IMG/VR virus record: IMGVR_UViG_3300045440_000165
Location: 1-64,000 of that record
Strand: one strand, 5' to 3'
Source: a virus
DNA length: 64,000 bases
The first letter of the stretch is position 1. Each line of letters starts with the position of its first letter. This document shows positions 2,478 to 59,058 of the stretch, in pieces. Position numbers and translations under genes: made by a program. Under the pieces are notes generated by a model. That model had not been told where the DNA came from. It did not search any database and saw only the letters and a program-made list of their open reading frames with translations.

Positions 2478-2873
2478 TTAACGACATGTGCAATTACTAC
2501 AAACTTCCTTTAGAATAGTTTTAGTACAAACATCATACCTTAATCCAGCATCTTTAACCCATTCTGCCATCCGTTCATTCTCGGCTAATAGCTTTTTATT
2601 CTCTCTTTCAAGTCTTTTTTCTGTGCTACTTTTTTTAAGGCTACTTTTGGTTTTTATTGTTGGCTTTTTCCAAGACTCCATTAATGCCTTAGCTTTGATT
2701 TCGCCATACTCCCACACTAGCCAATCTTTCCTAGCTGCATGATGTGATGAGCATCCTAATACAGGACTAGAAGGATCGTATTCGAGATACCACCCTACAT
2801 GCCCTACAATATCTCCCTGTCGCTCTTCGTAAGTTACAACTCCATGCTCTTTTGCAAATTTCTTTAGGTTCAT
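2478..2873 (-). CDS. hypothetical protein
   Basis: 131-aa ORF with AAGGAGAG RBS, co-oriented with neighbours. Confidence 0.7.
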   Translation of the reverse strand: MNLKKFAKEHGVVTYEERQGDIVGHVGWYLEYDPSSPVLGCSSHHAARKDWLVWEYGEIKAKALMESWKKPTIKTKSSLKKSSTEKRLERENKKLLAENERMAEWVKDAGLRYDVCTKTILKEVCSNCTCR

Positions 2874-2890
2874 CGAATTCTCTCCTTATT

Positions 2891-2979
2891 CATTTAAAGC
2901 TCCTATAAGCTGTTTTATTAGTGCTAGGCTACGCTGGTATTACTTTTCAATTTAAAACGCTTGTAGCCCTGTTATAATG
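2891..2979. repeat. ~90-bp intergenic element with imperfect inverted arms, copy A
   Basis: arms CATTTAAAGCTCCTATAAGCTGTTTTA and TAAAACGCTTGTAGCCCTGTTATAATG; resembles 4669-4756 and 6662-6747. Confidence 0.5.
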
Positions 2980-3000
2980 GCTTTGACGAGCCTTTTAAGT

Positions 3001-3273
3001 TTAATCGGTATTCCAAGGAAGGCCATTAGGTGGGAGATCCTTCGTATGCATCTCCTTCGGAAGTATTTCCTTCGCCTTAGAACGAACAACCTCTGTGTAT
3101 GCTACAAGTTTAAACTCCGCTGTAGACCTCTTACATTCCGTGCATTGCGTATATCGAGAATCCCCACACCTATACATGTCCTCAACATCTCCCTCTGTAG
3201 CTACAAACTCTGCCTCGCATGTAGGGCATTTACCCTTCCAACGCAGCTTCTTACCTTTCTTAACGCATTCCAT
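3001..3273 (-). CDS. small zinc-ribbon protein
   Basis: CPTC and CTEC pairs; AAGGAGGGG RBS. Confidence 0.7.
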   Translation of the reverse strand: MECVKKGKKLRWKGKCPTCEAEFVATEGDVEDMYRCGDSRYTQCTECKRSTAEFKLVAYTEVVRSKAKEILPKEMHTKDLPPNGLPWNTD

Positions 3274-3360
3274 ATCCCCTCCTTGTGTCTAATAATGATA
3301 CGTAGCATAGCAAAGAAATCCTAATAATGCTACTACATTCTAAAATATATTTTTCATTTG

Positions 3361-3389
3361 TTGACAAACTTAACATTCTATGTAATAAT
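3361..3389 (+). promoter_or_regulatory. sigma70-type promoter firing into a non-coding structured region
   Basis: TTGACA (3361-66), 17 bp, TGn-AATAAT (3384-89). Confidence 0.65.
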
Positions 3390-3395
3390 CGCGTT

Positions 3396-3620
3396 TGTGT
3401 AGAAATACATGGGGCCGACGGGTGGCGAGCTGGATCATTCGACCGAAAGTGCTAGAAGAATAAAAATAACTATTCTTTGTGCTTGAGACGAGATATTCTG
3501 CTGCTTCTTCATAAGTTCTCTACCTCCAGACAGGCGTATAGACTAACCGTTTATGCAAAGCCGTGGGGGTAGGGGGCCTATGGAGAAGCGGCAGAATATT
3601 CTCTCTCAAGTGCTAGTATT
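3396..3620 (+). ncRNA. putative structured non-coding RNA of about 220 nt
   Basis: long imperfect inverted repeat 3481-3528 / 3564-3611 whose mismatches are mostly U-G on the + strand; TGTA-GAAA-TACA hairpin at the 5' end; no ORF. Confidence 0.55.
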
Positions 3621-3930
3621 ATATATACAAGTAATAATATATAATAAATATATATTAATAAGTAATAATGTAAGTATCTACTTTAATATCTACTGAAGTA
3701 TTTATTTATGTATCTCCTACAATATCTACTTAAGTATAGTTTAAGTATAATCTTAAGTATCATCTTAAATTACTACATTTATCTATTTATCTAAGAAGAA
3801 TAAAGAACTTAAGTATTATCTTAAGTATATAACTTTAGTTTCTCTACGCTGCATTGTCTGTAGCTTATAACATACATTACAACAATAACTTAATCAATGT
3901 TATTATTATAAACATGTGTTATACATCATC
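3620..3930. repeat. very AT-rich tract with phased TTAAGTAT repeats (candidate replication origin)
   Basis: TTAAGTAT at 3730, 3741, 3753, 3809 and 3821 (11-12 bp spacing within clusters) plus TATCTAC variants. Confidence 0.55.
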
Positions 3931-3934
3931 CTTC

Positions 3935-4309
3935 TTATTCAATTAATTTATAAATATCATCAATAATTGATTGTCTATAATTCCAATACTCTTCCTTCAC
4001 ATCCTCATCATACCTCTGCGCTGTAACCATTTTATACCACTCCCATACGTTGCAAAGCTTCTCTGCTGTACAATATCCAAGTTCAGTGTTTCCATGTATT
4101 TTCTTTACTTTAGTCCGATGTTTAACAATCCTGAGTGTTGCAATAGCTCCCTTTAAAACATCATCATCGTCGTAGAATACATATTCAACTTTTACATGAT
4201 GTCCACGGATGTTAGCTAGTACAACACCAATCATCCCCCTACACAATTTCCCATCTTGAAATAAAATTACTCTATCTCCGCGTTTCATTACACTTCTCCT
4301 GTAGCACAA
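3935..4309 (-). CDS. hypothetical protein
   Basis: ORF track; probable start at the internal MKRGD after AGGAG. Confidence 0.65.
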   Translation of the reverse strand: MCYRRSVMKRGDRVILFQDGKLCRGMIGVVLANIRGHHVKVEYVFYDDDDVLKGAIATLRIVKHRTKVKKIHGNTELGYCTAEKLCNVWEWYKMVTAQRYDEDVKEEYWNYRQSIIDDIYKLIE

Positions 4310-4470
4310 TAAATATCAAACATTTCCCACCATAGGCCATTATTATCTTCGTCAAAGCTTAATGGATAGCCTTCAGGGTTGCTAAGATGCTTTTCATAAT
4401 AAGCAGTTTTGAATCCCTCTATATCAACCTCAACTTCACAAACAAAATCAAATAAGCTAAGCATATTCAT
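4288..4470 (-). CDS. small acidic hypothetical protein
   Basis: ORF track, co-oriented and overlapping the next gene. Confidence 0.6.
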   Translation of the reverse strand: MNMLSLFDFVCEVEVDIEGFKTAYYEKHLSNPEGYPLSFDEDNNGLWWEMFDIYCATGEV

Positions 4471-4531
4471 CCTTAAATATCAAATTTTAAAATATTAAAT
4501 TTCAGAATTAGGATTTCAAAAGTATAGGTTT

Positions 4532-4660
4532 TCAAATTCCTATGTTTTCATCTGAGGTCAACAAACCCTTCGCAATAGCATATGCGGTTATTAGCGGCAA
4601 TCGCTTTCTAAGTCGCCAGTTTGCACATACGTACATTGCTGCATAATCTCGCTTTCTCAT
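4532..4660 (-). CDS. 42-aa hypothetical protein (below track cutoff)
   Basis: AAGGAG RBS; MRKRDYAAMYVCANW...ENIGI*. Confidence 0.55.
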   Translation of the reverse strand: MRKRDYAAMYVCANWRLRKRLPLITAYAIAKGLLTSDENIGI

Positions 4661-4668
4661 GTCACTCC

Positions 4669-4756
4669 TTGTTATAGCCCCTTAGAGCCATTATTTACTA
4701 TCTAAGCCACATCCCTATTAAATTATAATTTAAAGAGCTTGTAGGGGGTTTAAAAT
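4669..4756. repeat. ~90-bp intergenic element, copy B
   Basis: GTTATAGCCCCTTAGAGCCATT ... TAAAGAGCTTGTAGGGGGTTTAAAAT. Confidence 0.45.
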
Positions 4757-4785
4757 CACTCTACTAAGGTTTTTAAGCAAGATTT

Positions 4786-5310
4786 CTAATCTGTGTATAA
4801 CCAATATGATAGAAAATTAACTACGAAATCCACAGATACACATATTTCCCCTTTATTTTGTAAATCATTCCTATCTTCAATAAACATTTCTTTTGTTGGA
4901 TTTTTTAAAATTAAAGTAGACATATCTGAAATTATTTTTGGTAACGGTTTATTTGTCTTTACTTGAAAAACTTGTACACCACCTTTCAGTATAAACATTA
5001 AGTGGTATGTATCCTGCGGCGTATCCTGCGGCGTATCCTGCGGCGTATCCTGCGGCGTATCCTGCGGCGTATCCTCCAGAATATCCTCTTGATATTCCAC
5101 TTCTTTAATCATAGCTTTAAATGCAGCTATCGTACTTCTTACGCCATGCATGAAAATATCTCTTGCTGTGCTTCCATTTCCCCCTCCATACTCCACTGCT
5201 GAACAACATTGTATCTCAGCTTCTTTTAAATATTCTTTATTATCTTCGATAGTTATGTTATCTAAAGCGGATATTAGCGCATCGTAGCTTGTGTATTTTC
5301 CAGTATTCAT
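4786..5310 (-). CDS. hypothetical protein with (DTPQ)5 linker
   Basis: ORF track; AAAGGAG RBS. Confidence 0.75.
   Translation of the reverse strand: MNTGKYTSYDALISALDNITIEDNKEYLKEAEIQCCSAVEYGGGNGSTARDIFMHGVRSTIAAFKAMIKEVEYQEDILEDTPQDTPQDTPQDTPQDTPQDTYHLMFILKGGVQVFQVKTNKPLPKIISDMSTLILKNPTKEMFIEDRNDLQNKGEICVSVDFVVNFLSYWLYTD
5009..5075. repeat. perfect 12-bp tandem repeat GTATCCTGCGGC, five full copies plus a partial
   Basis: units start at 5009, 5021, 5033, 5045 and 5057. Confidence 0.95.
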
Positions 5311-6367: not shown

Positions 6368-6396
6368 ATTCTACGTCTAATTTTTGTACATTGCAA
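6368..6396 (-). promoter_or_regulatory. early-class promoter with operator-like spacer (leftward)
   Basis: TTGCAA-TGTACAAAAATTAGACG-TAGAAT on the minus strand. Confidence 0.8.
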
Positions 6397-6661: not shown

Positions 6662-6747
6662 TATTAAACGAGTTATAAGCCATTTTATTAATTCGCCTAG
6701 GTTTGGTATTAACTTCTGAAAATAATCGATTCTAGAGTGGTTTAAAG
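6662..6747. repeat. ~90-bp intergenic element, copy C (most diverged)
   Basis: TTATAAGCCATTTTATTA...TGGTATTA...TTCTAGAGTGGTTTAAAG. Confidence 0.4.
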
Positions 6748-7533: not shown

Positions 7534-7562
7534 TTGCAATGTCTAATAATTAGACATATAAT
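7534..7562 (+). promoter_or_regulatory. early-class promoter with perfect palindromic spacer
   Basis: TTGCAA-TGTCTAATAATTAGACA-TATAAT. Confidence 0.9.
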
Positions 7563-9556: not shown

Positions 9557-9585
9557 TTGCAATGTCTGAAAATTAGATTTACAAT
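9557..9585 (+). promoter_or_regulatory. early-class promoter with operator-like spacer
   Basis: TTGCAA-TGTCTGAAAATTAGATT-TACAAT, followed by a 28-bp leader identical to 7564-7591. Confidence 0.85.
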
Positions 9586-10271: not shown

Positions 10272-10300
10272 TTGTAATGTCCACTAATTAGACATATAAT
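10272..10300 (+). promoter_or_regulatory. early-class promoter with operator-like spacer
   Basis: TTGTAA-TGTCCACTAATTAGACA-TATAAT. Confidence 0.85.
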
Positions 10301-38500: not shown

Positions 38501-41500
38501 GAGCAATTAAACAAAGAGCAAGCACTATTGGATGCTACATTAGGCATCGAGCAAGCTAAAGTGTCTGCTATAGCAAGGTCTAAAAATGCCACCATTGATT
38601 TAGCTATGAAGGGGATAGAAGCGGAGATAGCTTACAATAATGCTTTTGAAATATCTTCCACGTCTCAGATTGAGCAACTAAATAAACTGGCAGATTTAAA
38701 AGAGAAGTTTGCTGTAAAAACTTCTGAAAATTTCAAGATAGCAGGTTTAGAAGATACTGGCACAGTGCTTGAAAAGATGAGTAAATCTGTAGGTAACTTA
38801 GGTAACTCTTTCTCAGGTGCTGGCAAAGCATTAAAAGGTTTTGCAGAATCTTTTAAAGATATGGCTGCGATTGAAAAACAGACAGCTAAAGATGGTAATA
38901 AGAACTTAGAGGGTAGGGTAGCTGTCTACGGCAATATGGCGGGAGCTGCTAAGAATTTCTTTAAAGAAAATACTACAGGATATAAACTACTCCACAGCCT
39001 AGAGACAGGGCTGCATGTATTCCAAATGGCTATGCAAGCTGAAAAACTTGTAACTAGCTTAACGACTACAGCAGCCATAACAACAGCAGAAGTGGCAAGT
39101 CAGGGGGTAGTAACTGCTGCAGTAACCACAGGGGAGACAGCGAGGAATGCTGCCAAAGTTCCCGGAGTATTTATGTCTTTTCTATCATCCCTTGGCCCTT
39201 GGGGTATGGCTGCTGCTGCTATTGCTATTGGCGCTGTTTTGGGAGGTGCATTTAGCGGAGGTGGTGCTAGTGTGGATGTGGCAAAACAACGCCAAGAAAC
39301 TCAAAGCACAGGAACAGTATTAGGAGATGATACAGCTAAATCCGAATCTATTGTTAATTCCTTAGACAAGCTGGTAAGCGACTCTAACATAGCTTTATCC
39401 CACTCTTCGAATATGCTAGTAGAGTTACGTAGCATCCGTGATGGTATTTCTGGTATGGCTTCATTTGTATCTCAATCGTCAGGGTTACGTGGCACAGCGG
39501 CTGACGAAAGATCTGCTGGTGTTGGAAGCTCTAGAACATTCTTAGGGTTTTCTTCTAGTTCCAGAGAGTTAGTAGATTCTGGTATTGTCTTTGATAAGGT
39601 AACAACAGAAGCTAATAGCCTTGTCAACAAAGCTATAATGGAGAAGTATAAAAAATCTATAGAAGAGTTTAATGCTAACATAGCAAAGTCAAGCGATGAA
39701 GAATCTCAGTATGCATACATCTATGCCCCACAGAAACCCGAGTTACAGAAGTCTTCTCAAACTGTAGGCAGTGTAATGGATCAAGGTGTATCCGCTCGTG
39801 GGTATCAAGATATTTACGAAAAGAAATCATCATTTTTTGGATTGTTTAATAGCTCTTCTAATAAAACTGAATTCTCAGATTTGAAACAAGGGTTGAAAGA
39901 CCAATTTGGAAAAACTGTATCTTCCATGTTTTCTTCCATTGTTGAAGCTGCAGCTTTCTTAGGTAAAGACAAAGGTGTGATGTCTGAAGCATTGAAGTCT
40001 ATTTCATTCGAGCAAGCAGGATTGGATAAGATTAGTCTTAAAGGGTTATCTGGTGCTGATATAGAAAGAGAATTGCAATCTGCATTTAGTATGCTCGGTG
40101 ATAAGATGGCAGAAGTAGCAATGCCTGCAATAGCACAATTCCAGAAAGTTGGAGAAGGATTATTCCAAACTTTAGTAAGAGTGTCAAGTGGTGTTGAGTC
40201 AGCTAGATTTGAGTTAGATAAGTTGAATATTGCTTCTATCGATTACACAGATATTATCAACAAGCAAGGTGATACATCGACAGAGATAGTTAGAGACAGT
40301 ATTATTGCATTTGAAAGAATGAATAACTCTGCTGAAGGTATTAGCAATATTATTAGAACTATGGATGGAGTTGCGCAAGATCTAGCATCAACTTATAAAG
40401 ATCTATCAGTTGTTAGAGAAATGATGAATTCTAACGGGCTGAATGGTAATACATTATCTAGTGCCACTATCTGGGGTGCTGGCGGTATTGATAACCTTAA
40501 ATCTGGAATTCAAGATTATTTCAAGGGATTCTTTACAGATGTAGAACAGAATGCTTCTAAGCTATCGGCACTAACTAAAGAGTTTAACAGCATGGGTTTA
40601 TCTATCCCTGCAACTAAAGCTGAGTTTAAGTCTTTAATACAATCTTTAGATAACGGCTCAGAGAGTGGCAGCAAAATGGTAGGTAAGTTGTTAAGTATGT
40701 CTGGAGCGTTTGCTGATGTCTCTGATGCAATAGATGCAGCTACTAAGGTGGCAACTGAAGCAGCTAAAGAAGCGGCAGATGCAGCAGCTAAAGCTAAAGA
40801 GGAAACATTAAAGCTTGCGCAAGATGGTGTTAATGATGCTTTGTCTGTATTAACTAAATCGGTTAATGCTCAAAAGAAAGCTGTGCAAGATAAGGCAGCG
40901 TTAGACAAAGCAGCAGCGCAAGTGCAGCTTAAAGATGCTACAGATTTGTTATCTTCATTAACAGGTATTTCTAACATCTTCAAAACTAGCTTGGCTGCAT
41001 TAGATCCAATGTCAAGAAAGAGTGCTCAAGATTTGCTTAACTCTGCATTGTCAGTTTCTAATGGTGGTGGGGATATTTCTAAGATTAAAGGATTACAAGA
41101 TGCTGTATCTGCAGTAGGTAAGCCAAGTGAACAGATGTTTGCAAGCTTATTTGATTTCCAGAAAGATCAGCAGCAAACTATTAACACTATTACTAGCCTG
41201 AAAGCTAATACTGACAAGCAAGTTTCAGAACAACAATTGACAGTAAATGCTATCAATGATACAATAAAGGCTATTGAAGATAGCACAACAAAAGAATTGG
41301 CAAGACTGGATGGTATTGTTTCTTCAGCTCAAGCTCAAATCGATGCTATCAATGGTGTTACTAACGCTGTCCTCACTGTGCAAGAAGCTTTATTTAATCT
41401 GGCGGATGCTTTGGGAGTGTTAAAAGCAGCTAAAGGCCCTCAACCTACTGTAGCTATTCCGGGGTTTGATTCTAAGGAATATAAAGATTCCACTAGCAAA

Positions 41501-49813: not shown

Positions 49814-50380
49814 TCAATTCTTCCCGTGATTTTCTGTGTAGTTTGCGCCACTTAGATTTAAAAGTTTAATGTTTTCTAACCTGCAATCCACTGCAGCTTT
49901 AAACGCAGGCAGTAACCCCATCTTCTTGACAGAAAACCATCGAGAAACACCCTTCCGATTAATTTTCCAATGAGCTACACAATAAGTAATACTACTCTTC
50001 TGCATAATTGATACGCCAGTAGTGCCTGATGTATTGGCAGAAGACATTCCCCTATTTTCACTATTTGTCTTTTGTGAACAAACCTTTAAATTAGATACCT
50101 TATTGTTTTTAGTATCTCTGTCTATATGGTCAACTTTATCCTTTTCCGTTAATGATATACCGTTCAGTAGGCATACTAACCTATGGCACCTATACTTCTT
50201 ATTTTGTACTTGGACATTGAAATATCTACCTTTAAACCCCCCAGCAACCTGTCCTATAAAAGTCATTGGCCTACTATTGCCGCTTGTCCGTATTTTATTC
50301 CACCTTAGACAACTTGGACTGGATTCATCATAAATAAAGTTTTCCAAAACATCTTGATAACTTAGTTTCTGCATGAGCAT
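49814..50380 (-). CDS. free-standing HNH homing endonuclease with AP2-like domain
   Basis: HRLV...VDHIDRDTKNNKVSNL; NTSGTTGV...FSVKKMG; ATG overlaps the nrdA stop (TAATG). Confidence 0.85.
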   Translation of the reverse strand: MLMQKLSYQDVLENFIYDESSPSCLRWNKIRTSGNSRPMTFIGQVAGGFKGRYFNVQVQNKKYRCHRLVCLLNGISLTEKDKVDHIDRDTKNNKVSNLKVCSQKTNSENRGMSSANTSGTTGVSIMQKSSITYCVAHWKINRKGVSRWFSVKKMGLLPAFKAAVDCRLENIKLLNLSGANYTENHGKN

Positions 50381-51330
50381 TATCCTTCGCAGCTTAAACA
50401 AGTTGACTCAGTAGAGTTGCTTATATCCCAATCCTTGAGAGCTTTGCGTTCAATATCTTTTACGATATTAATATCCCCCTCCCTCTCAGTTCTAAAATAA
50501 TACATAGTAAGTACATTAGGGCTATTTAAAAACTTCAAATGAACACTATTGCTATACTTCCTACTGCTACCATACGGGAAGAACACATTCAATGATTGTG
50601 CTTGACAAACATATTGTCCACGATGCTCTGCTTGCTCAATAATCCAATGTTGATCTAGCTCCATCGCTGTAGCAAATACAGCCTTCTCACGCTCATCTAA
50701 AAAATCTAAATGGCTTACACGTCCTTCATTCTTTCTAATACTTTCCCACACTTCAAAAGTATCTTTTCCTTTAGACTTTAGCAATGTCTCTAAGTGCCTA
50801 TTCTTCACTGTAAAATTACCAGCTCTACTACTCTGCAAAAATATATTCCTAAAGTATGGCTCGATGCTAGGAGATGTATCAAGAATACTAGCGCTATTTG
50901 AGTTAGGTGCAATAGCCATCAATCTACTATTACGCAACCCTGTGCCAATCATATCCTCTGGCTCTCCGCGCTCGATAGCAAGCCTCCTACTTTCTTCCGT
51001 AGCCCTCCCTTTGATTAGCGCAAAGATTTTATTAGTGTGTTGAATAGCACTATTAAATCCCCCGCCTTCAAATGGAATAAGCTTACTTTGCAAATACCCA
51101 TGCCATCCTAAAGTACCTAAGCCTAATGCTCGTTCTGCTTTAGCTGAAAATCTAGCTTTGGCAAGCTCCGGTGGTGCATTGTCAATGAAGCTTTGTAATA
51201 CATTATCCAAGAAGCGTACTAAATCTGCTACGATAGTGGTGTCTTTCCATTCTTCAAATTTCTCTAAGTTCAAGCTACTAAGGCAACAAACGAATGTTCT
51301 GAATTCGTCAGTAGGTAATGTTATTTCACT
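50380..51330 (-). CDS. nrdA: ribonucleotide reductase alpha subunit, exon 2
   Basis: SEITLP, VCCLSSLNL, RALGLG, AIAPNSNS, QAQSLN, YYFR and C-terminal CLSCEG. Confidence 0.93.
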   Translation of the reverse strand, partial: SEITLPTDEFRTFVCCLSSLNLEKFEEWKDTTIVADLVRFLDNVLQSFIDNAPPELAKARFSAKAERALGLGTLGWHGYLQSKLIPFEGGGFNSAIQHTNKIFALIKGRATEESRRLAIERGEPEDMIGTGLRNSRLMAIAPNSNSASILDTSPSIEPYFRNIFLQSSRAGNFTVKNRHLETLLKSKGKDTFEVWESIRKNEGRVSHLDFLDEREKAVFATAMELDQHWIIEQAEHRGQYVCQAQSLNVFFPYGSSRKYSNSVHLKFLNSPNVLTMYYFRTEREGDINIVKDIERKALKDWDISNSTESTCLSCEG

Positions 51331-51717
51331 CGTTGTGTTCAAGATTGGTCGCTAATCAATCCCCGCTCTAATTGGTACACGATGACTACGTATCTCCCCT
51401 GCTTGAAGCTGTGCAGGGCTAGGGCATTACTCCTAGTATTTTCCAATTGCAAGCTGCTACATATCCCTATATAGACCAGACTATATCATCAACCATTTTA
51501 CTCTAGTAACTCCAGCATAACACTGGCAGATGGTTGCTTACCGCTTCGTACCGCTTGGTACTACTCCCTTTTGAGGATAGTCGTTGCTCTTTCCAGATAT
51601 ACCGCTAACTTAGCGCATTCAATTTTATTCTGGCTTAGATCAGGATTACGTGTTCTACGCTTCCCCTGAGTTCAATAAGTTTGCAATATACATTACTGTA
51701 TAAGGGTGCTATTACTA
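51331..51717 (-). ncRNA. group I self-splicing intron, 387 nt, no ORF
   Basis: P1 GUGU|UA-GUAA-UAGCAC with U-G at the splice site; P AACTCAGGGGAA, Q AATCCTGA, R GCAACGACTA, S GATATAGTCT; terminal G; splicing restores GSNLC|SEI. Confidence 0.92.
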
Positions 51718-52686
51718 ACACAAGTTGCTTCCACGAATCTTCAACCCTTTAGCCCTCTGAGTTTCTGGCATCTTCCGATTAGCCTCATCAATCTTCAGCA
51801 GATATGGCTCACCTGTCAACGCTCGATTCTCAAGAATATTCTCCCATACTTCCCGCGCTCTAAGCTCCTCATAAACTTTCCCGCTATGAGGACATACTAG
51901 CGGATAGGTAGTGTTATTCTTAACCGCCTCAATAAACTTATCTGTAATATTAACAGCACTATGATATTGCTGCCTATTATCACTTCGCCTTTTAGCATCT
52001 CCCCCCGGCTTACGGAAATTAATATGCTCTACAATATCAGGGTGATCTACATTCAAGTATGATGCAATAGCTCCACGTCTATTCTGCTGCCTGAAATATC
52101 CAATAGCACTATCCATAACTTTCTGATACGGGATATTACCTACAGCCTTGCCTCCCACTCCACGAATAGAAAGATGTGCTCCAGTACCACCTCCAGACAT
52201 AGAGAGCGTAGCAAGCTCTTGAATAGCTTCTACTTGCCCTTGTGCTGTATCTGGTACATTGAATGCAAAGCAGCTAATAGGAAGTCCATGTTGCTTCTCT
52301 TCTGCAATGAAAGTAGATGTGTACCAATAGTGCTTCCCTTGCTTAGCTTCATCTTCCACCCATCTCCCTTTAGTTGCATTACTAAGCACAGGGGAAGCAT
52401 ACATGAACCAACCATTGTAAACATAGTCATAAATACGTTGAGCTAATTCATAATCCCCGTAGCAGAAAGCAGTAGCAGGGCGAGCTAGAGCTTTAGAAAT
52501 ACTCTCCCCTTCTCGTTTATAAAATCCATCGAGTAATGTCTTAGAAAACTCCGTAATATATGCCGGATCATTCTCATAAATCATAATACCATTGTAGGGT
52601 ATCTTCGTACCATTCTTAGGTACTAAAGTACCTAAATAGGGTACTTTTTCTGCTGAGTTACACACTTCACTAGCATTATTAGACAT
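51718..52686 (-). CDS. nrdA: ribonucleotide reductase alpha subunit, exon 1
   Basis: ASPVLSNA, LPISCF, GGGTG, RRGAIASYL, TGEPY; ends GSNLC. Confidence 0.93.
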
Positions 52687-58982: not shown

Positions 58983-59058
58983 TGGTGCTCCCCGCAGGAT
59001 TCGAACCCGCGACCTCCTGATTACAAGTCAGGTACTCTACCAACTGAGTTAGAGGAGC
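58983..59058 (-). tRNA. tRNA-Thr (anticodon UGU)
   Basis: GCTCCTC acceptor stem; CCTGA-CTTGTAA-TCAGG anticodon arm; GGTTCGAATCC T-arm; encoded CCA; 76 nt. Confidence 0.96.

What the first reader, a model, noticed from the sequence alone, without database searches (positions are those of the whole stretch)
3361..3620. Promoter-driven ~220-nt structured RNA antisense to the surrounding operon
Seen: a TTGACA-17-AATAAT (extended -10) promoter points rightward inside a leftward gene block, into a GC-richer ORF-free segment. 3481-3528 pairs with 3564-3611 over ~45 bp, and most deviations from a perfect inverted repeat are U-G wobbles on the + strand, which points to selection on an RNA helix of that strand. 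There are also a GAAA-tetraloop hairpin, an AAGAATA/TATTCTT hairpin and a possible closing stem AGTGCTAG/CTAGTATT. I cannot assign it to a known RNA family. It could be a decoy or regulatory RNA, or a replication primer.
Basis: partly seen in the sequence, partly recalled or inferred. Interest (0 to 1): 0.75.

Follow-up and report, generated by a model that had tools for sequence, protein, structure and literature searches.

The report
Ultra-conserved phage antisense RNA gene
An uncultured freshwater phage carries a promoter-driven, strongly folded RNA gene of about 225 nt that points against its early operon, has stayed 98% identical while neighbouring genes diverged to about 60% at silent sites, and overlaps a hidden 25-codon gene on the other strand, so it is most likely an antisense regulator, though no transcript data exist.

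Summary
A near-consensus sigma-70 promoter (TTGACA-17-TGtAATAAT, 3361-3389) points rightward into a segment that folds far better on the + strand (-103.6 kcal/mol, z -9.45) than on the - strand (-70.4). The fold is a 5' GAAA hairpin, a loose 5' domain, and a three-way junction carrying a 48-bp bulged helix with 8 G.U pairs and 1 A.C.

New evidence comes from the single homologue found, a 1.8-kb JGI contig (L028). The RNA body is 220/225 identical, while third codon positions of the two flanking genes are only 54% and 67% identical. Both promoter hexamers and the TG are kept, but the 17-nt spacer has 6 changes. This fits site-specific selection better than recent transfer.

The segment is not ORF-free. 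The - strand has GGAGG-10 nt-ATG and a 25-codon ORF for a small hydrophobic peptide. The peptide is identical in L028, and both substitutions inside the ORF are synonymous.

There is no Rfam family, tmRNA, reverse transcriptase or other homologue. My best reading (about 0.42) is a cis-antisense RNA controlling the leftward transcript, with a type-I toxin-antitoxin-like (Sib/Ibs-like) layout. Rivals are a trans-acting or decoy RNA, an origin primer transcript, and a - strand leader. Expression is untested.

The parts
3339..3360 (+). A/T-rich stretch directly upstream of the -35, possibly an UP element
   Evidence: 22 of 22 positions identical in L028. The UP-element role is inferred.
3361..3389 (+). 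Sigma-70-type promoter TTGACA-17-(TG)t-AATAAT
   Evidence: Matches 11/12 plus TG. In L028 both hexamers and the TG are identical, the spacer is only 11/17 identical, and it is still 17 nt long. It lacks the TGTC..TTAGAC operator that fills the spacers of the early promoters at 6396, 7534, 9557 and 10272.
3397..3410 (+). Predicted RNA 5' end and hairpin H1 (5 bp, GAAA tetraloop)
   Evidence: Mean pair probability 0.85. The start site is inferred from the -10 position. Identical in L028.
3411..3447 (+). G+C-rich 5' domain with a loose fold; candidate helix 3413-3418 / 3439-3444
   Evidence: RNAalifold selects this helix, with C3416-G3441 replaced by U-A in L028. Its thermodynamic probability in the window sequence is only 0.11. 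Three of the five differences lie here.
3448..3620 (+). Three-way junction: closing stem H3 (3448-3454 / 3614-3620), hairpin H4 (3455-3462 / 3471-3478), and long helix H5 (3479-3528 / 3564-3613) with an apical stem-loop (3533-3562)
   Evidence: Folds. Pair probabilities are 0.78 (H3), 0.95 (H4) and 0.97-1.00 (H5). Only 2 differences from L028: A3546U in the apical loop, and U3604C beside the C3489 bulge.
3435..3512 (-). 25-codon ORF (polar N-terminus, hydrophobic C-terminal half), stop codon at 3435-3437
   Evidence: the peptide is identical in L028. The two substitutions inside the ORF (3441, 3447) are third-position synonymous changes. 11 of the last 15 residues are hydrophobic, which passes the rule of PMC2887945. 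No Pfam or PHROG match.
3523..3527 (-). Shine-Dalgarno GGAGG, 10 nt before the ATG at 3512
   Evidence: Read from the sequence. Predicted to be fully paired in the - strand hairpin. About half of such motifs in this window are chance.
3622..3837 (.). Context: DNA of about 20% G+C downstream of the RNA, with clustered CTTAAGTA and TATCTAC repeats
   Evidence: GC 0.195-0.24. Five of the eight CTTAAGTA sites in the window fall within 3727-3827. In L028, 3622-3665 is 93% identical, and the rest is 66% identical with 126 gap columns, though the motif recurs. No intrinsic terminator for the + transcript was found.

Best explanation
This is a gene for a non-coding RNA of about 225 nt (about 3397-3620, + strand). 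It would be transcribed by host RNA polymerase from a near-consensus promoter that lacks the operator seen in the early promoters. It lies inside, and opposite to, the phage's leftward early operon.

The RNA is by construction fully complementary to the leftward transcript. That transcript here carries a GGAGG-ATG 25-codon ORF for a small hydrophobic peptide, 161 nt upstream of the 90-aa zinc-ribbon gene.

Proposed mechanism (inferred). The stable, bulged + strand hairpin gives a long-lived antisense RNA. It meets the weaker mirror-image hairpin of the leftward mRNA through the complementary apical loops and through its loosely folded 5' domain. The complex then blocks translation of the small ORF, or exposes the mRNA to RNase III, or both. 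This limits the peptide and possibly the expression of distal operon genes. The layout matches type I toxin-antitoxin pairs such as ibs/sib, where the small ORF lies wholly inside the antisense RNA gene.

Shown: the structure, the strand asymmetry, the conservation pattern, the promoter conservation, and the presence and conservation of the ORF. Inferred: transcription of either strand, translation of the ORF, any toxicity, and the pairing pathway.
For: The + strand folds at -103.6 against -70.4 for the - strand, with z -9.45. The main helix has 8 G.U and 1 A.C. The RNA body is 220/225 identical to L028, against 101/168 identical third codon positions in the two flanking genes (Fisher p 3.5e-23). 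The -35, -10 and TG are invariant while the spacer is 11/17 identical at constant length. On the - strand, an SD, an ATG and a 25-codon ORF lie entirely inside the RNA gene, in the same orientation as the surrounding operon. The peptide is identical in L028, and both in-ORF changes are synonymous. The peptide passes the hydrophobic-stretch rule used to find type I toxins, and the ORF lies 422 nt from the upstream gene (PMC2887945). The SD and AUG are buried in the - strand fold, as in many type I toxin mRNAs (the comparison is from my own knowledge). The long helix is broken by bulges into runs of 10, 4, 20 and 14 bp. Bulged stems of this kind are known from the antisense RNA CopA (own knowledge).
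Against: There is no RNA-level evidence for either strand (one search lists no RNA holder; one search failed). Only two lineages are known, so covariation is essentially untestable, and random sets of 5 substitutions are as stable as the observed set 29% of the time. The one compensatory pair lies in a helix with probability 0.11, and its 3' partner change is equally explained as a synonymous change in the ORF. The hydrophobic stretch is short (about 11-13 residues). The peptide matches no toxin family. About half of the GGAGG-N-ATG motifs in this window are chance. The segment of the RNA that is antisense to the RBS is itself locked in a very stable helix, which is awkward for fast pairing. 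No terminator defines the RNA's 3' end. Near-total conservation of both helix arms is more than an antisense function alone requires.
Confidence: 0.42

Rival explanations
1. A trans-acting structured RNA. It would be a decoy, sponge or protein-binding RNA, for example for RNase III or a host sensor of structured or double-stranded RNA, or a partner of a phage protein such as the adjacent zinc-ribbon protein. Its primary sequence is constrained by that partner, and the - strand ORF is a by-product of the hairpin's symmetry.
For: 98% identity across both arms of a 48-bp helix, with no compensatory drift, fits sequence-specific recognition better than simple cis-antisense pairing, which stays complementary whatever mutates. 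The strong operator-free promoter suggests high expression. The block of 124-aa gene, RNA and 90-aa gene is syntenic in both lineages, while genes beyond it differ. An SD plus AUG in one arm automatically produces a mirror image on the other strand, as read from the sequence.
Against: No partner is identified. There is no complementarity to other phage regions beyond chance. No Rfam family matches. The flanking proteins have no informative relatives. The two synonymous changes and the operon-matching orientation of the ORF would both be coincidences.
Confidence: 0.2
2. A transcription-activated replication origin. The promoter fires into the 20% G+C, repeat-bearing DNA at 3622-3837, and the transcript opens or primes the origin (own knowledge: T7 primary origin, T4 oriF/oriG, ColE1 RNA II). 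The folded RNA is the 5' part of the primer precursor.
For: A strong promoter is followed within 230 nt by the most A+T-rich DNA of the region (GC 0.195). CTTAAGTA repeats cluster at about 12-nt spacing. The motif and the composition persist in L028 despite large indels. No terminator separates the RNA from this DNA.
Against: In origins of this type the transcribed leader need not be conserved or folded. Here the RNA body is the most conserved part (97.8%), while the supposed origin DNA is the least (66%, 126 gap columns). No initiator, helicase loader or primase gene is adjacent. GC skew only follows gene orientation. The repeats could instead be promoters or regulator sites for the leftward genes.
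Confidence: 0.12
3. The functional molecule is the - strand. The hairpin is a translational-control leader, and the small ORF is an ordinary short gene of the leftward operon. The + promoter is fortuitous or serves only transcriptional interference.
For: The SD, ATG and ORF are conserved. The SD is sequestered by a C-rich 5' arm. The - strand fold is still significant at z -5.35.
Against: All wobble positions favour the + strand (10 G.U in the long hairpin become A.C mismatches on the - strand). The + promoter hexamers, TG and spacing are conserved across a diverged spacer.
Confidence: 0.1
4. There is no RNA function. A regulatory or recombination 'linker' cassette is kept near-identical by frequent exchange between phages (own knowledge: like the promoter-stem-loop cassettes of T4-type phages), or it is a small mobile element.
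For: Other intergenic blocks are also far better conserved than the genes: element A at 2884-2977 is 97% identical, and 3274-3360 is 92%. A 9-nt direct repeat AAGTGCTAG brackets 3456-3607.
Against: The element is single-copy in the 75.7-kb genome. It is absent from 15 relatives. A diverged promoter spacer sits inside the conserved block, which recent transfer would not produce. The direct repeat overlaps the helix and is part of the fold.
Confidence: 0.08

Closest known systems
ibs/sib (and other) type I toxin-antitoxin loci of enterobacteria (PMC2887945; details of Sib from own knowledge)
   Same: A very small hydrophobic ORF lies entirely inside an oppositely transcribed, highly structured sRNA gene of about 110-220 nt with a strong constitutive-type promoter. 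The locus is set apart from its neighbours by long spacers. The ribosome-binding site of the peptide mRNA is sequestered.
   Different: There is no sequence or family relationship. The setting is a virulent-looking phage early operon, not a chromosome or plasmid. The locus is single-copy, not tandem. The hydrophobic stretch is shorter. The antisense RNA is dominated by a 48-bp helix that is an inverted copy of the ORF's own start region. Toxicity is unknown.
CopA/CopT-tap of plasmid R1 and Inc RNA/repY of IncI plasmids (own knowledge)
   Same: A constitutive antisense RNA with a long bulged stem-loop targets the leader of an mRNA that contains a leader ORF of about 24-29 codons. Bulges interrupt the stem. 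Pairing starts with loop-loop kissing.
   Different: Those leader ORFs are translationally coupled to the next gene. Here the next gene starts 161 nt away, so coupling is unlikely. No replication initiator is identified. This RNA is about 2.5 times longer.
Phage antisense RNAs: P22 sar, lambda OOP (own knowledge); early antisense transcripts of Pseudomonas phage PAK_P3 (PMC4933390)
   Same: Host-polymerase-driven RNAs transcribed against a phage operon and used for temporal or level control.
   Different: sar and OOP are 68-77 nt simple hairpin RNAs with terminators. The RNA here is a multi-helix 225-nt molecule with no recognisable terminator and no homology to them.
Transcription-primed origins (ColE1 RNA II, T7 primary origin, T4 oriF/oriG; own knowledge)
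   Same: A promoter is followed by A+T-rich, easily unwound DNA. A structured or G-rich transcript sits upstream of it.
   Different: The conservation pattern is the reverse of what an origin predicts. No replication genes are adjacent.

Membership tests
Any Rfam 15 family | Covariance-model match at or near the gathering score | tested here: not met
   The only hits are generic miRNA-hairpin models far below threshold (36.5 bits against 96), and lysM-Prevotella at E 4.3.
Type I toxin-antitoxin (ibs/sib-like) | Toxin ORF under 60-70 aa with a hydrophobic, membrane-type stretch | tested here: met
   The ORF is 25 aa. 11 of the last 15 residues are I/V/L/F/C/M/A, against the rule of at least 10 of 15 in PMC2887945. 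The stretch is short for a full membrane span.
Type I toxin-antitoxin (ibs/sib-like) | Structured antisense RNA with its own promoter overlapping the toxin mRNA | tested here: met
   Met at sequence level only: a conserved promoter and fold on the + strand cover the whole ORF. The transcripts themselves have not been observed.
Type I toxin-antitoxin (ibs/sib-like) | Long spacers to neighbouring genes (at least 400 nt upstream, at least 250 nt downstream in PMC2887945) | tested here: inconclusive
   Upstream spacer 422 nt (met). Downstream spacer 161 nt (not met).
Type I toxin-antitoxin (ibs/sib-like) | Peptide is toxic when over-produced, and the RNA represses that toxicity | not testable with these tools
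   This needs expression experiments.
Type I toxin-antitoxin (ibs/sib-like) | Homology to a known toxin family | tested here: not met
   No Pfam or PHROG hit at E up to 10. The peptide pattern is absent from the viral and genome collections.
Retron ncRNA (msr-msd) | Adjacent reverse transcriptase gene on the same strand | tested here: not met
   No RVT_1 match anywhere in the 75.7-kb record, although the control genomes do match. There is no + strand ORF downstream.
tmRNA (the 5' domain resembles GGGGCUGA..CUGGAU..UCGAC) | tRNA-like domain with a T-arm and a 3' acceptor strand, plus a tag reading frame | tested here: not met
   ARAGORN and Rfam find no tmRNA in the window or the rest of the genome. 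No matching 3' acceptor strand exists.
Transcription-primed replication origin | Promoter directed into an A+T-rich unwinding region with repeats | tested here: met
   The layout is compatible with an origin but not specific to one.
Transcription-primed replication origin | Replication actually initiates here, or an initiator binds the repeats | not testable with these tools
   No replication data exist. The conservation pattern (RNA 98%, repeats 66% with indels) does not favour it.

The most novel reading that the evidence does not exclude
This could be the founding member of a new class of phage structured RNAs: a three-way junction with a 48-bp G.U-rich helix, whose whole primary sequence is frozen because it acts in trans on a host or phage machine. 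Examples would be a decoy for RNase III or for a defence sensor of structured or double-stranded RNA, or the RNA subunit of a complex with the co-conserved zinc-ribbon protein. Antisense control would then not be its function.
Probability: 0.15. Interest if true: 0.8.

Novelty: new member of a known kind. Interest (0 to 1): 0.55.

Why it matters
Structured non-coding RNAs of virulent-type, uncultured phages are almost unknown, and few candidates come with comparative support. In this case the promoter elements, and not the spacer, are under selection, and a 225-nt RNA has resisted change while silent sites next to it approached saturation. That makes it a well-defined target for experiment.

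If it is a type-I-like module, it would place such modules inside a lytic-type phage early operon, with an unusual design: the antisense RNA contains an inverted copy of its target's ribosome-binding region. If it acts in trans, it could reveal a new RNA-based phage-host interaction.

Tried and rejected
**Searches for a known family or further homologues (all negative)**
- Rfam, at both thresholds and on the 5' part alone, gave no family.
- tmRNA or tRNA-like identity of the 5' domain was rejected.
- Retron identity was rejected because the genome has no RT.
- A hammerhead-like core (CUGA..GAAA) was rejected by eye. Each lineage has only one of the two motifs.
- GenBank phages and PLSDB plasmids gave no match.
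- 15 IMG/VR relatives with about 70% terminase identity have no RNA by BLAST or by covariance model R1, and no flanking genes. The BLAST hits in L024 and L025 are chance matches in coding DNA.
- Pattern scans of viral contigs found nothing related. The hit L029 is an unrelated G-rich palindrome.
- Genome-contig scans and flank-protein loci in viral contigs found nothing.
- The metagenome scan gave the single homologue L028.
- Homologues of the flanking proteins number one each. P0004, from a 9.4-kb ENA contig, is identical to the L028 fragment, so it is the same lineage.

**Access problems**
- No RNA holder was listed among public runs.
Variants in the DNA runs could therefore not be read.

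**Tests without a useful result**
- The MFE-preservation test of the 5 substitutions was not significant (29%).
- A trans-target search within the phage found only chance-level 11-14-mers.
- ESM Atlas gave no informative neighbours for the flanking proteins.
- The + strand ORF starting at 3580 was rejected. It is cut from 38 to 17 codons in L028 and runs into A+T-rich filler.
- A - strand promoter for the 90-aa gene (TCAACA-16-TAGAAT, 3364-3337) is not conserved in spacing.

Full report
**Setting.** The window is the first 64 kb of a 75.7-kb IMG/VR virus record (88% complete, linear) from a freshwater metagenome. Genes from about 6.4 kb down to base 1 are all on the - strand, and so are the genes of the last 11.7 kb. 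The finding therefore sits about 3 kb into a long leftward (early-type) transcription unit. Its neighbours are a 124-aa protein of unknown function (3935-4309), a 90-aa four-cysteine zinc-ribbon protein (3001-3273), and then a 131-aa ORF, a phosphatase, a DenV-type pyrimidine-dimer glycosylase and a papain-like protease. GenBank phages hold nothing similar.

**The observation.** The promoter TTGACA-17-AATAAT with TG before the -10 (3361-3389) matches 11 of 12 positions. It is the best site on either strand in 2800-4800 and one of eight sites at 11/12 or better in the window. It lacks the TGTC...TTAGAC operator that fills the spacers of the early promoters at 6396(-), 7534, 9557 and 10272, so it is a different promoter class.

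From the predicted start near 3397, the + strand folds into the following:
- H1, a 5-bp GAAA-tetraloop hairpin.
- A G+C-rich 5' domain with no dominant fold.
- A three-way junction made of a 7-bp closing stem (3448-3454 / 3614-3620), an 8-bp hairpin (3455-3478), and a 48-bp helix (3479-3528 / 3564-3613) capped by an 11-bp stem-loop.

The fold energy is -103.6 kcal/mol, against -61.2 +/- 4.5 for dinucleotide shuffles (z -9.45). The complementary strand reaches only -70.4. In the 48-bp helix, the non-Watson-Crick positions are 8 G.U pairs, one A.C mismatch and two bulges. That 8:1 split has a one-sided probability of about 0.02 if the strands were equivalent (my arithmetic).

**Comparative evidence.** I found only one homologue. 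A metagenome scan with the 90-aa protein returned L028, a 1,812-nt JGI contig. It carries the same block: 124-aa gene, A+T-rich repeats, RNA, zinc-ribbon gene and a 90-bp element. An ENA protein (P0004) is identical to the L028 fragment, so this second lineage has been sampled twice.

The two lineages are well diverged:
- The zinc-ribbon proteins are 59-69% identical, and the L028 protein has a 15-residue insertion.
- Third codon positions are 54% and 67% identical in the two flanking genes.
- The RNA body, in contrast, is 220/225 identical with no gaps (Fisher p 3.5e-23 against third positions).

Within the promoter, the -35, the -10, the TG and the 22 nt upstream are all identical. The 17-nt spacer is only 11/17 identical yet is still 17 nt long. 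A recently exchanged cassette would be uniformly identical. This position-specific pattern is what selection on a working promoter and its product looks like.

The five RNA differences are:
- C3416U and G3441A. RNAalifold pairs these as C-G to U-A.
- A3447G, in a linker.
- A3546U, in the apical loop.
- U3604C, beside a bulge.

None disrupts a robust helix. However, five changes carry no statistical power, because 29% of random five-substitution sets are at least as stable. The helix holding the compensatory pair has a probability of only 0.11. So covariation is suggestive at most. The strong argument is the conservation contrast.

The - strand reads GGAGG (3527-3523), 10 nt, ATG (3512), then 25 codons to a TGA at 3437-3435. 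The peptide has a polar, lysine- and glutamine-rich N-terminus and a hydrophobic C-terminal half. Eleven of its last 15 residues meet the hydrophobic-stretch rule that Fozo et al. used for type I toxins under 50 aa (PMC2887945). The ORF runs in the same direction as the operon and lies wholly inside the RNA gene. Its peptide is identical in L028, and the two substitutions inside it are both third-position synonymous changes.

Several cautions apply:
- One of those two changes is also the 3' partner of the candidate compensatory pair.
- About half of the GGAGG-N4-11-ATG motifs in this window precede ORFs under 20 codons, meaning they are chance.
- No family matches the peptide.
- A hairpin automatically mirrors an SD plus AUG onto the other strand.

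The mirror ORF on the + strand (starting at 3580) is cut from 38 to 17 codons in L028, so I do not think it is real. In the - strand fold, the SD and AUG are fully paired with a C-rich 5' arm. That helix has about ten A.C mismatches and is much weaker than its + strand counterpart.

**Interpretation.** The best-supported statement is that a + strand RNA gene exists here. I put this at about 0.8. On function, I favour a cis-antisense regulator of the leftward transcript with a type-I-TA-like (ibs/sib-like) layout, at 0.42. In that model a stable, abundantly made antisense RNA faces a metastable mRNA hairpin that hides the ribosome-binding site of a tiny hydrophobic peptide. Contact through the complementary apical loops and the loose 5' domain would block translation or trigger RNase III cleavage.

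The helix is broken into runs of 10, 4, 20 and 14 bp. From my own knowledge, bulges of this kind in antisense RNAs such as CopA limit RNase III attack on the free RNA and speed up kissing.

Two points weigh against this reading. The near-frozen sequence of both arms is more than cis-antisense pairing needs. The anti-RBS segment is also locked in a very stable helix.

**Rivals.**
- A trans-acting or decoy RNA (0.20) explains the frozen sequence better, but it has no identified partner, and phage-internal targets are at chance level.
- A transcription-primed origin (0.12) fits the promoter, the 20% G+C DNA and the clustered CTTAAGTA repeats. But the supposed origin DNA is the least conserved part (66%, 126 gap columns) and the transcribed leader is the most conserved, which is the reverse of what that model expects.
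- A purely - strand leader (0.10) is contradicted by the wobble asymmetry and the promoter conservation.
- A recombination linker or mobile cassette (0.08) is contradicted by single-copy status and by the diverged spacer inside the block.

**Comparison with known systems.** The locus belongs to no Rfam family. It is not a tmRNA, despite an eye-catching GGGGC(C/U)GA...CUGGAU..UCGAC similarity at its 5' end. It is not a retron RNA, because the genome has no RT. It is absent from 15 relatives with about 70% terminase identity, from IMG/VR and GTDB pattern scans, and from plasmids. It works most like ibs/sib or CopA/tap, but it is not a member of those families.

**Limits.** As a result, the variants that appear to exist in several freshwater, marine and aquaculture DNA runs could not be read.

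**Verdict.** This is a real, unusually well-conserved candidate phage ncRNA gene of a known general kind (a cis-encoded antisense RNA, possibly type I TA-like) with an unusual architecture. It merits a direct transcript test. Interest 0.55.

Noticed in passing
window 2884-2977, 4669-4756, 6662-6747; L028:1355-1445: Three dispersed intergenic elements of about 90 bp share a common core (..TTAAAGC..CTATAAGC..TATTA..TTTAAA..GCTTGTAG..). Each has a + strand TTTAAA-16-TA(T/A)AAT promoter-like site. Copy A is 97% identical in L028 although the genes around it differ. They may be regulatory or recombination cassettes.
   Followed up: partly
window 3622-3837: A 20% G+C tract carries CTTAAGTA (5 of the window's 8 copies) and TATCTAC repeats at about 12-nt spacing. 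The motif persists in L028, but the tract is about 125 nt longer there. These may be iterons or regulator sites. Their function is open.
   Followed up: partly
window 3274-3340 (- strand): The conserved (92%) leader of the 90-aa zinc-ribbon gene has a 7-bp hairpin (GTAGCAT...ATGCTAC) and two copies of CATTATTAG. The predicted - strand promoter upstream of it is not conserved in spacing in L028, so the gene is probably read through from upstream.
   Followed up: no
window 25217, 26895, 32640, 41237 (+); 40187, 27228, 24896 (-): Perfect-TTGACA promoters matching 11/12 or better are about 8-fold enriched over my rough expectation. Several of them point antisense inside late structural genes, for example inside the 2173-aa gene at 40187, which has the same hexamers as the RNA promoter. 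No obvious structured RNA follows the two I inspected.
   Followed up: partly
window 6368-6396 (-), 7534-7562, 9557-9585, 10272-10300 (+): The early promoters TTG(C/T)AA-17-TA.AAT carry a TGTC..ATTAGAC operator-like palindrome in the spacer.
   Followed up: partly
window 51457-51727 (-): A group I intron (Rfam 68.3 bits) lies between ORFs 50380-51342 and 51715-52686, which are probably the two exons of one gene.
   Followed up: no
window 58983-59058 (-): A phage-encoded tRNA-Thr (UGU).
   Followed up: no
L029 about 6240, 6620 and 7010 (- strand): An unrelated 65.7-kb viral contig has repeated intergenic GGGGTAGGGG...CCCCTACCCC palindromes, each followed by an A+T-rich stretch and a TTGACA promoter. 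This looks like a terminator-promoter cassette family.
   Followed up: no
L028 1036-1353: The zinc-ribbon protein of the second lineage has a 15-residue insertion before a conserved C-terminal PP.GLPW.TD motif, which may be a docking peptide.
   Followed up: no
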